Part shown: one piece after another, positions 56,362-58,253 of the stretch
Position numbering within the stretch: the stretch's first letter is position 1
Layout: every line of letters begins with the position of its first letter
Source of the DNA: Octopus vulgaris
Taxonomy: Eukaryota
Assembly (NCBI GenBank): GCA_951406725.2
Contig: OX597825.1
Location: 82,088,001 to 82,152,000, forward strand
DNA: 64,000 nucleotides
Reading direction: 5' to 3'
Notes under the pieces: model-generated
Seen by the model: only the letters and a program-made list of their open reading frames with translations
Database searches by the model: none
Told to the model about the DNA's origin: nothing
Position numbers and translations under genes: made by a program

Positions 56362-57599
56362 GTGTGTATGTATGTGTGCGTGCGTGCGTGCGTGTGTGTG
56401 TGTGTGTGTGTGTGTAACCTAAATATAAAATCATTGATTACTTATTCTATAGATATAGAAACGGAATTTAAAGGAAGTCAGCTGCCAATTATATGGAGAG
56501 TAGTACTTCAGTAGTACTTTGTTTATTGGCTCTGAATGGATGGAAGGAAGGCGAAGTTGACCTCAGGGGAATTAGAACCCAGATCGTAAAGATCAGCAGT
56601 GAAATACTCTATGGGAATTTGTCCGGCGTCCTGATGGCGACAATTCGCCGTCTTAAACATACAATAAATGGCGGTAACAACACTTATGTCATAACAAGTA
56701 ACGTCTGTACACTAAAGACTTTATTCTACGACTAATGATGCAACCCTTGGCTTAAATAACAGACAGAACTAACTCACGAGAGACAGCATCACAACAATTA
56801 TCATCTTCCACAACAGCAAAATCATCATCAACACTAACATCATCACCAGCAACAACAACAACAACTACAACTACGACAACTTATTTGTCCTAAGTTTGAA
56901 AAAGCATTTCATGTTGTTTACGTGGAAGCTGTAAAATTAAGTTTAAAAACTTATGACTCATTCTTCATTTTGGTAAACAACAATTTCAACATTTTTTCCG
57001 GAAGATTCTTATCATCAAGGCAACAAATAGTAAATACATAAATATAGGTCAATGAATTCAATTTTCTTCAAATTAATTAAAATCTTATTTCAATTAATTT
57101 CGTTTTAATTATATATTTTGTTATACCGTACTTAACATTCTTATTCTTATTATGGTAGCAGAAAATATGAAAATAAGAGAAATAATATATTTCCTCTGTT
57201 TATTGTGATGAGTAAGTATTTTAAAAGTCGGTGACTGAAAGATAAATAAGGAAAGAAGCCAACGAATAAAAGAAGCATAAACAAATGCTGAAATGTAAAA
57301 GGTTTATATAAAAATTAAATTACAAGTTTCTGTTCATTTTTTATATGTCTGAGTAGAGTCGAACGTGAATATTTTGATCGCTGTTATTTTTCGTCGTCGG
57401 AGAACACTTTCACGCTTTGGAAGACATGTATTCATAACATGCGATTCTATCAAGTGTAAGAGGAATTTGAGATGCAGTAATGTTCCAACCTCTTCAGTCA
57501 AAAATACCACTTCGAACCTAAGGATCTAACCAGAGTACAACCTCCTGTACCTGGTAATCAACGAACAAATTATTGGTTGGTGCATGCAGATGCCTGCCA

Positions 57600-58095
57600 A
57601 TATAATAGTAGTTCATGGGGTGCATGTAGAACGGTGAGAACCCAGACAATAACGTGCCTAATCATTCTTAATGCATTCTGGTAGATTCGAATGTGAATGT
57701 GCTGATCGCTGTTGCTTTTCGTCATCGGAGAGATAACACGTTTATTTAGACGATGTGTGTCCATAACAGATGCGATTCACTGGTGAAAGGGTACAGTAAG
57801 ACATTGGAACGCATCAGCAAATGCTTTGCTTGCCGATTCTTATTAACAATAGCTCGTGCTTTTGTCTGATTCATTAGTCCGGCAGGGTAAATTTCACTGA
57901 TGAGACACATAATGAGGACGAAACATGGTGGTTTCTGAAAATCCCCCTCCACCAGTGAATGGCGTGATCTTCTCCGATGACGAAATGCAAAGCGGTCAGA
58001 TATTCACGTTTGAGTTCTCTAGAAGTATTAAGAATGAATAGACATGTTGTGGATTTGATTCTCATGTACCCAATGAAATAACAAGTTAATTTAAA
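57600..58095 (+). other. Long imperfect inverted repeat (rod-like fold) with an embedded decayed hammerhead motif at 57892-57940
   Basis: Arms pair by hand over ~240 nt each around apex agc-tcgt-gct (~57855); TTTCA-CTGATGA-g..c-GAAA-c..g-TTTC-TGAAA in the right arm. Confidence 0.75.
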
Positions 58096-58253
58096 ACATT
58101 TTGTTATGAAACAACGTATCCGCTAGAAGACACGTTCATTGAGATCGCTTTGGAATGAAGCTGTTTAGATAACAATATCCGTTTGTTCAAATTGGCTCGT
58201 GATTGTAATATTCATCTACTTTGTGTGTGTCTGTATGTGTGTGTATGTATGCT

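What the first reader, a model, noticed from the sequence alone, without database searches (positions are those of the whole stretch)
57310..58220. Rod-like fold with G-U-biased pairing and an embedded hammerhead: candidate retrozyme/viroid-like or long-hairpin RNA locus
Seen: unique, microsatellite-free DNA in which 57600-57850 pairs with 57860-58095 around apex agc-tcgt-gct. Hand count of transition-type mismatches on the + strand is roughly 13 G-U versus 4 A-C, whereas the fold-backs at 1.6-2.1 kb and 32.7-32.9 kb show no G-U excess in the parts I paired. The right arm holds a type-I hammerhead layout (stem I TTTCA/TGAAA, CTGATGA 57897-57903, GAAA 57920-57923) whose stem II looks like a decayed GTCCTCAT-A-ATGAGGAC, and the left arm retains the complementary catcag. 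Short outer helices (57352-57380 with 58199-58220; ttcataaca with tgttatgaa) could extend the fold to ~870 nt. Known: hammerheads inside compact rod or branched folds are typical of retrozyme circRNAs and viroid-like RNAs; inverted pseudo-LTRs with hammerheads are typical of Penelope-like elements. Inference: a genomic copy of a structured self-cleaving RNA, or a hairpin selected (or A-to-I edited) at RNA level. This copy's ribozyme is probably inactive.
Basis: partly seen in the sequence, partly recalled or inferred. Interest (0 to 1): 0.72.

Follow-up and report, generated by a model that had tools for sequence, protein, structure and literature searches.

The report
Decayed head-to-head hammerhead repeat insertion
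This long fold-back is two old, decayed copies of a 330-base repeat that carries a hammerhead (self-cutting RNA) motif, joined back to back, most likely by a Penelope-type jumping-gene enzyme; the hairpin is a by-product of that layout and its G-U excess lies within chance, so it is an ordinary mobile-element fossil.

Summary
The fold-back (z -11 and -8 on the two strands) and the hammerhead core at 57897-57923 are real, but the DNA is not unique. It belongs to a dispersed family (hundreds of candidate places; 98 loci examined) with a ~329-nt non-coding unit carrying a type I hammerhead. Here a 1.5-unit copy on the minus strand (57806 to ~57322) is joined head-to-head to a ~1-unit copy on the plus strand (57799-58083); that inversion makes the rod. 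34 of 98 loci have such inversions, with varying junctions; the 15 others folded are about as stable. Family 3' ends cluster at two sites ~39 nt apart: the Penelope 'tail' signature. G-U versus A-C is 17:7 (p=0.06) here but 157:169 in 18 comparable loci, 4 of 81 loci are as skewed, and half the G-U pairs come from C-to-T, so it is not an editing or selection signal. Copies are ~18% decayed; this ribozyme has broken stems II and III and is probably dead. Verdict: a new family of a known kind (non-LTR retrozyme / non-autonomous Penelope-like element), not a viroid-like rod. The scan has noted the same layout in other families, in this genome and others.

The parts
57322..57806 (-). Left arm: ~1.5 tandem units of the 329-nt hammerhead repeat, read on the minus strand (profile positions 39-321, then 2-189); ends at the family's 'short' 3' site (left boundary +/-5 nt)
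   Evidence: nhmmer map, (E 1.6e-74 and 2.1e-32); end contexts
57466..57503 (-).
   Evidence: row 2 of alignment A1
57799..58083 (+). Right arm: ~1 unit (profile 248-323, then 2-237), with a ~33-nt deletion near 57946-57957 that the homologous contig in run X1 lacks; ends at the 'long' 3' site
   Evidence: E 7.6e-13 and 8e-36; joint table
57799..57805 (.). Head-to-head junction of the two arms, with ~7 nt of microhomology (AGACATT); the left arm's 5' end lies within a few bases of the predicted hammerhead cut site
   Evidence: overlap of profile hits; sequence
57635..58064 (.). Fold-back: 57635-57790 pairs with 57945-58064 because both are copies of the same part of the unit in opposite orientation
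57813..57837 (+).
   Evidence: helix 1, 79% of cells paired
57845..57866 (+).
   Evidence: helix 2, 75% of cells paired
57868..57961 (+). Type I hammerhead domain: outer stem I 57868-57878/57951-57961; inner stem I 57892-57896/57936-57940; core CTGATGA 57897-57903 and GAAA 57920-57923; stem II 57904-57906/57917-57919 (one A-A mismatch); stem III 57923-57934 (C-U mismatch beside the core); predicted cut after C57935
   Evidence: does not fold into the active shape alone (z 0.3)
58050..58083 (+). 3' 'tail': the extension between the family's two preferred 3' ends, present on this end of the insertion only
   Evidence: bimodal 3' ends

Best explanation
The locus is two decayed copies of a dispersed 329-nt, non-coding, hammerhead-bearing repeat joined head-to-head, likely inserted by a Penelope-like retrotransposon's enzyme, and the long hairpin is a by-product of that inverted layout. 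Shown: the repeat family, unit length, hammerhead layout, arm map, two preferred 3' ends, variable 5' ends, ~18% decay. Inferred mechanism: a family RNA longer than one cleaved linear unit (an uncleaved tandem transcript or a ligated circle) was bound by a Penelope RT-endonuclease. The enzyme nicked both strands of an AT-rich target and primed reverse transcription from each DNA end, starting at one of two internal sites ~39 nt apart. The two 5'-truncated cDNAs were joined through a short microhomology. In the source elements the hammerhead (3-bp stem II, short stem III with a palindromic loop) would have cut mainly as a dimer in tandem transcripts. Since insertion the copy has likely drifted neutrally and its ribozyme is predicted inactive.
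For: Family: 379, 463 and 572 candidates, best independent matches <=81% over short stretches; 32 exact matches to a partial hammerhead pattern against 0 for the reversed control. Unit: 15 natural core-to-core units, mean 329 nt, 67% pairwise identity, 38% GC, longest stop-free frame 38-91 codons. Hammerhead: 11 core positions 88% conserved against 78% for all columns in the 49 rows not picked by the hammerhead pattern; named helices 77% paired against 35-45% when slid. Penelope layout: 34 of 98 loci head-to-head against 1 doubtful tail-to-tail call, junctions at many positions; of 134 3' ends, 54 fall at profile 180-209 and 36 at 230-249; 11 of 15 inverted loci with both ends defined have one short and one long end (p=0.05); one clear 12-bp target duplication (L150). 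PMC8557442 preprint and PMC3846280 describe this layout; PMC11167929 shows the tail is the stretch between two internal RT start sites and that both target strands are cut and extended. RT plus GIY-YIG elements with intact 781-aa frames are in this genome. Template: 81 of 97 arms read through the cut site, 49 of 97 exceed one unit. Neutral decay: the four segments differ 18-20% from column majorities against a family median of 17.8%; G-U:A-C 157:169 in 18 other loci; 15 other inverted loci fold at z -2.9 to -17 with strand gaps of -40 to +29 kcal/mol.
Against: No autonomous partner was found: the unit profile had no hit at E<=1 in 30 GIY-YIG loci, nor anything better than E 5 in 8 longer stretches, and no Penelope ORF remnant adjoins a family copy convincingly; only 30 of 6136 candidate GIY-YIG places were looked at. 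Target duplications are not significant over all 15 loci (permutation p=0.15) and inconclusive here. The one-sided-tail test is borderline. Covariation is weak (133 against 106+/-10 double changes, 1 of 500 shuffles; pairs and pair types not above shuffles) and partly explained by CpG decay in palindromes; RNAalifold returned no consensus structure. Rfam finds no hammerhead at E<=10. Loci were found with queries that contain inversions or hammerheads, so 34/98, 81/97 and 49/97 are inflated. The window's strand skew is at the edge of significance (C>T 27 against G>A 13, p=0.04).
Confidence: 0.82

Rival explanations
1. The locus has been kept, or edited, as a long hairpin RNA (selected dsRNA, ADAR substrate or small-RNA source), which would explain the G-U excess and the stronger fold of the plus strand.
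For: G-U:A-C 17:7 in profile-anchored columns (p=0.064), 12:3 in a local alignment (p=0.035); plus strand 40 kcal/mol more stable.
Against: 4 of 81 loci are as skewed, mean z-squared 0.94; 9 of the 17 G-U pairs arise by C>T and 8 by A>G, and the family spectrum is strand-symmetric (A>G 0.067, T>C 0.073); the arms are as diverged as any copy; the homologous contig in run X1 differs at 28 listed sites in 57600-58095, 18 of them paired, 12 breaking the pair, none compensatory (the fold was derived from the window, which biases towards 'breaks'); L161 shows the same energy gap.
Confidence: 0.05
2. The copies are stubs of the pseudo-LTR of an extinct autonomous Penelope-like element, with tandems arising at DNA level, and not a free-standing retrozyme with its own RNA cycle.
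For: Same tail and inversion signatures; retrozymes are homologous to pLTRs in Xenopus (bioRxiv 10.64898/2026.07.22.740005); no array longer than ~2.5 units was seen.
Against: Upstream of the hammerhead the copies continue into the same unit again, never into coding sequence: 15 complete tandem units, no convincing RT/EN remnant beside any of 98 loci.
Confidence: 0.1
3. A genomic copy of a viroid-like or deltavirus-like rod RNA of ~500-870 nt.
For: Hammerhead core inside a rod-like fold.
Against: The junction differs from locus to locus; single units fold no better than shuffles (mean z -0.5 sense, -1.0 antisense); antisense hammerhead core in 0 of 15 units against 6 of 15 sense, no ORF; hundreds of dispersed copies with retrotransposon ends.
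Confidence: 0.01
4. A MITE or DNA-level palindrome (foldback element).
For: Inverted arms; AT-rich flanks.
Against: 64 of 98 loci have no inversion; arms are of unequal, variable length and 5'-truncated; ends are two fixed 3' sites of a ribozyme-bearing unit.
Confidence: 0.02

Closest known systems
Metazoan non-LTR retrozymes (Cervera and de la Pena 2020, PMC7229834: passages and section 14 read; Li, Clavereau and Pollet 2026, bioRxiv 10.64898/2026.07.22.740005: parts 1-3 of 5 read)
   Same: Non-coding unit of 150-450 bp, GC below 50%, one type I hammerhead per unit, dispersed monomers and tandem dimers, co-occurring with Penelope-like elements; a mollusc example (mussel, 350-390 bp) is known.
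   Different: This family is old (~18% decayed; 5 strict full-motif matches in 2.8 Gb), arrays reach only ~2.5 units, and this locus fails the 'active' definition (two consecutive complete hammerheads). Cleavage and circles are untested. The word 'inverted' does not occur in the main text of PMC7229834 and occurs once in the 2026 preprint.
Canonical endonuclease-positive Penelope-like element insertions (Craig et al. 2021, bioRxiv 10.1101/2021.04.23.441226 = PMC8557442: passages; Arkhipova et al. 2013, PMC3846280: passages; Frangieh et al. 2024, PMC11167929: passages)
   Same: 5' truncation, partial tandem, adjacent inverted 5'-truncated copy in head-to-head orientation, 30-40-nt tail on one end, hammerhead in the repeat.
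   Different: No RT or GIY-YIG ORF; the whole element is a 329-nt unit; no partner element identified.
Type I hammerheads that act as dimers (Cervera and de la Pena 2014, PMC4209133: parts 1-2 of 4 read)
   Same: 6-bp helix I, short helix III with a palindromic loop.
   Different: Helix II is 3 bp with a 8-10-nt loop and no extra nucleotide at its base, unlike the long helix II of PLE minimal hammerheads; closer to the canonical retrozyme type. A 7-bp alternative helix can cover the cut site.

Membership tests
Non-LTR retrozyme | Type I hammerhead in each unit | tested here: met
   Family: 26 of 65 rows keep the whole core, 9 keep core and stems (12 and 4 of the 49 rows not picked by pattern). 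This copy keeps the core but has 2 of 3 stem II pairs and 3 of 4 stem III pairs.
Non-LTR retrozyme | Unit of 150-450 bp, GC below 50%, non-coding | tested here: met
   329 nt mean over 15 units; 38% GC; longest stop-free frame 38-91 codons.
Non-LTR retrozyme | Head-to-tail tandem copies, dispersed in the genome | tested here: met
   15 complete tandem units among 98 loci on many contigs; the left arm here is 1.5 units.
Non-LTR retrozyme | Active element: two consecutive units with complete hammerheads | tested here: not met
   Here the two hammerheads lie on opposite strands and one lacks stem II.
Non-LTR retrozyme | Self-cleavage and accumulation of circular RNA | not testable with these tools
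   Only assembled contigs were offered; needs bench work or raw reads.
Non-LTR retrozyme | No LTR, PBS or PPT | not tested
   Not searched specifically; the arm map shows no LTR-flanked internal region.
Penelope-like element insertion | Variable 5' truncation and partial tandem | tested here: met
   5' starts spread over the whole unit.
Penelope-like element insertion | Adjacent inverted 5'-truncated copy, head-to-head | tested here: met
   34 of 98 loci; 1 doubtful tail-to-tail call.
Penelope-like element insertion | 30-40-nt tail, usually on one end | tested here: met
   3' ends peak at profile ~198 and ~237; one of each in 11 of 15 loci, p=0.05, including this one.
Penelope-like element insertion | Target-site duplication (when present 8-10 bp) | tested here: inconclusive
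   Clear 12 bp in 1 of 15 loci (L150); overall p=0.15; score 6 here against a null of 5.0+/-1.1.
Autonomous Penelope-like element | RT plus GIY-YIG ORF | tested here: not met
   No ORF in the element; tblastn of 27 GIY-YIG-element frames finds nothing in the window.
Non-autonomous derivative of a named PLE family | Homology to the pLTR of an autonomous partner | tested here: inconclusive
   None in 30 GIY-YIG loci and 8 longer stretches; 6136 candidates exist.
Viroid-like / deltavirus-like RNA | Conserved rod fold of the whole unit, ribozymes in both polarities (feature recalled from general knowledge) | tested here: not met
   Units fold like shuffles; antisense core in 0 of 15; junction not conserved.
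Selected or A-to-I-edited hairpin RNA | G-U over A-C beyond chance, A>G-dominated changes, compensatory pairs, lower divergence | tested here: not met

The most novel reading that the evidence does not exclude
The family is a fossil retrozyme whose RNA circles were copied rolling-circle fashion by a Penelope reverse transcriptase from both ends of a DNA break: arms longer than one unit, read-through of the cut site, two fixed start sites and head-to-head joins would be the genomic footprint of the proposed but unproven retrozyme-Penelope partnership in a cephalopod-like genome.
Probability: 0.4. Interest if true: 0.42.

Novelty: new member of a known kind. Interest (0 to 1): 0.22.

Why it matters
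Modestly. It adds an old hammerhead-repeat family that carries the Penelope insertion signatures (head-to-head arms, two 3' start sites), which supports by mechanism the published proposal that Penelope enzymes mobilise animal retrozymes. Being decayed and probably extinct, it is a poorer test system than the young families this scan has noted elsewhere. It is also a useful caution: a very stable rod with a G-U excess can arise from an inverted insertion plus chance, and sister loci give the right null.

Tried and rejected
Rfam scan: whole window gave only microsatellite-driven miRNA hits among the 150 of 383 listed; 57200-58220 gave 2 chance hits and no hammerhead. RNAalifold on 15 units and on 65 domain segments gave no structure: copies too decayed. 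Expression: no RNA holder listed; of six runs guessed to be RNA, X2, X3 and X5 gave only short pieces (under 50-60 nt, 9 of 10 below 90% alike) that look like other family copies, and X6, X11, X12 gave nothing at 93%. These blanks say nothing about expression. Idea that arms stop at the ribozyme cut site (suggested by this locus and L007): 6 of 87 5' ends lie there, 6.8 expected, rejected. Idea of a preferred 5' start at profile 240-260 (19 of 132): probably truncation plus detection limit; upstream flanks share only family or unrelated repeat sequence. Partner search: weak RT similarity beside L095 (E 2e-4, 63 aa) did not extend in 9.9 kb; Penelope fragments near L016 and L046 lie 700 nt or more away. 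Host gene context: 20 of 29 long frames in the window scanned, no Pfam hit. Earlier-findings look-up by sequence found nothing. Literature: search 'hammerhead ribozyme' + 'octopus' gave 4 listed papers, none describing such a family by title or abstract start; PMC13282606 has no occurrence of 'ribozyme', 'retrozyme' or 'hammerhead' in its main text; its repeat library and all supplements were not seen, so the family may already sit there unnamed.

Full report
Observation. The inverted repeat is real: BLAST pairs 57635-58064 with itself at 62%, and 57310-58220 folds at -297 kcal/mol on the plus strand (z -11.3) and -254 on the minus strand (z -8.1), with none of 20 shuffles as good. Half of the strand gap is compositional: the shuffles average -222 and -200.

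It is a repeat family. The 911-nt interval has 379 candidate places and 68 scored matches in the own genome G000 (2.8 Gb, 227 contigs). Two other natural copies gave 463 and 572 candidates. A partial hammerhead pattern matches 32 times against 0 for the reversed control; a strict full-motif pattern matches 5 times. After removing duplicates, 98 of 125 fetched family loci remained. Fifteen natural core-to-core units average 329 nt and 67% pairwise identity, 38% GC, without an ORF. Copies differ from column majorities by a median 17.8% (197 hits, range 8.6-31%), so the family is old. The host is not given; size, contig number and microsatellite load suggest a cephalopod (inference). If it is an octopus, the age fits the Penelope-like expansion at distance 0.2 reported in PMC13282606 (passages read).

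Anatomy of this locus. A profile built from natural copies maps four segments: minus strand 57806-57522 (profile 39-321) and 57502-57326 (2-189), a 1.5-unit tandem; plus strand 57799-57874 (248-323) and 57892-58083 (2-237), about one unit. The arms point away from a junction at 57799-57805 with ~7 nt microhomology. Only 57635-57790 and 57945-58064 are an inverted duplication; the centre is one unit and folds as a branched structure. A contig of run X1 (kind not on record, other organism label) covers the whole locus with 32 + 17 differences and holds 45 letters where the window has 12 at 57946-57957, so a ~33-nt deletion in the right arm is recent.

The ribozyme. Alignment A1 holds 65 of 73 candidate segments (8 truncated or second copies left out by hand; L005 and L118 are a near-identical duplicate pair; 16 rows came from a hammerhead pattern search). 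The family has a type I hammerhead: 6-bp inner stem I extended by an 11-bp outer stem, 3-bp stem II, and a short stem III with a palindromic loop, the design that PMC4209133 describes as needing a dimer. Core positions are 88% conserved against 78% for all columns in the 49 rows not picked by pattern. The named helices are 77% paired against 35-45% when slid; double changes are 133 against 106+/-10 in shuffles, a weak signal partly due to CpG decay, and the structure was read from these same rows. RNAalifold found nothing and Rfam no hammerhead. The plus-strand copy keeps the core but has an A-A mismatch in stem II and a C-U mismatch beside the core in stem III, and does not fold into the active shape (z 0.3); the minus-strand copy lacks stem II. 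Both are predicted inactive.

Penelope signatures. 34 of 98 loci carry head-to-head arms, with junctions at many positions, against one doubtful tail-to-tail call (a few weak cases may be internal self-complementarity, and two queries contained inversions). 3' ends are bimodal at profile ~198 and ~237 (54 and 36 of 134); 5' ends are scattered. Eleven of 15 inverted loci with both ends defined, this one included, have one end of each kind (p=0.05), and L150 has a 12-bp target duplication, though duplications are not significant overall (p=0.15). This is the layout given for Penelope-like elements in the preprint of PMC8557442 and PMC3846280. PMC11167929 shows in vitro that the enzyme cuts and extends both target strands and starts at two internal RNA sites that bound the tail. 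RT plus GIY-YIG elements, many with intact 781-aa frames, are abundant in this genome, but none of the 30 loci and 8 longer stretches examined shares sequence with the unit. 81 of 97 arms run through the predicted cut site and 49 exceed one unit (biased towards long copies), so the template was an uncleaved multimer or a circle; the data do not separate these. PMC3846280 offers self-priming on an antisense template as another route to head-to-head repeats; the junction here has no clear palindrome, but that route is not excluded.

The G-U excess. With symmetric scoring the outer stem gives 9:2 to 13:7 (p 0.035-0.30); anchored on the profile, 17:7 (p=0.064; three of the 17 lie in the ambiguous junction). 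The right null is sister loci: 157:169 in 18 loci oriented like this one (p=0.54); the window's strand skew (z 2.0) is matched by 4 of 81 loci, mean z-squared 0.94. Nine of the 17 G-U pairs come from C>T and eight from A>G; family-wide A>G and T>C rates are 0.067 and 0.073, so there is no editing signature. The four segments are 18-20% diverged, like any copy. Of 28 listed differences to the X1 contig (the tool counted 36 in 57560-58110), 18 are at paired sites, 12 break the pair and none is compensatory (biased because the fold came from the window). Fifteen other inverted loci fold at z -2.9 to -17 with strand gaps from -40 to +29 kcal/mol; the window's is -40.

Comparison and verdict. It works like a non-LTR retrozyme mobilised by a Penelope-like element (PMC7229834; bioRxiv 10.64898/2026.07.22.740005) and meets the sequence-level criteria of that class as a family; this locus fails the 'active' criterion, and cleavage and circles are untested. 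It is not a viroid-like rod, a MITE or, on present evidence, a selected hairpin. I had this reading before looking at earlier notes; they report the same two-armed layout for other, younger families here and in other genomes (AI notes, not checked), and none matches this sequence. New member of a known kind; interest 0.22.

Noticed in passing
window 57902-57908 with 57931-57937; L091, L093: In the family a 7-bp helix between the stem II 5' strand and the cut-site strand (82% pairable) dominates the monomer fold even in copies with intact motifs; it could be a built-in off state that protects unit-length RNA.
   Followed up: partly
L007:1525 (and window 57799-57806): L007 has almost the same junction as this locus (profile ~42 joined to ~255), with one arm starting at the predicted cut site; no family-wide excess of such starts.
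   Followed up: yes
window 17662, 23681 (+), 50417, 28665 (-), 16872/26601 (+), 17110 (-): Other CTGANGA...GAAA layouts in the window, some with short complementary stems, unrelated to this family; those at 26601 and 17110 recur in L020 and look like another repeat family.
   Followed up: no
window 1549-2141 and 32691-32927: Two other fold-backs (233 and 99 Watson-Crick columns) bounded by TA-rich runs; possibly other inverted insertions; no hit to this family's profile.
   Followed up: partly
L096:1745-4087, L097:1342-3684: A young Penelope-type family with an intact 781-aa RT plus GIY-YIG frame at about 20 listed places, ~4.7 kb unit with an upstream 359-378-aa frame; no standard hammerhead core found by a simple pattern in L096.
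   Followed up: partly
L099:1321-2086 with 3718-4483: A 5'-truncated Penelope copy with a 100% identical 766-nt inverted arm: a very recent insertion with the same inverted layout.
   Followed up: no
L005 and L118 (G000:C3, ~410 kb apart): Near-identical family copies, probably a segmental duplication.
   Followed up: no
window 60110-60401 and 60252-60542: Short direct repeats at 256-269 nt spacing, with a fold-back at 60162-60282: perhaps another tandem/inverted element.
   Followed up: no
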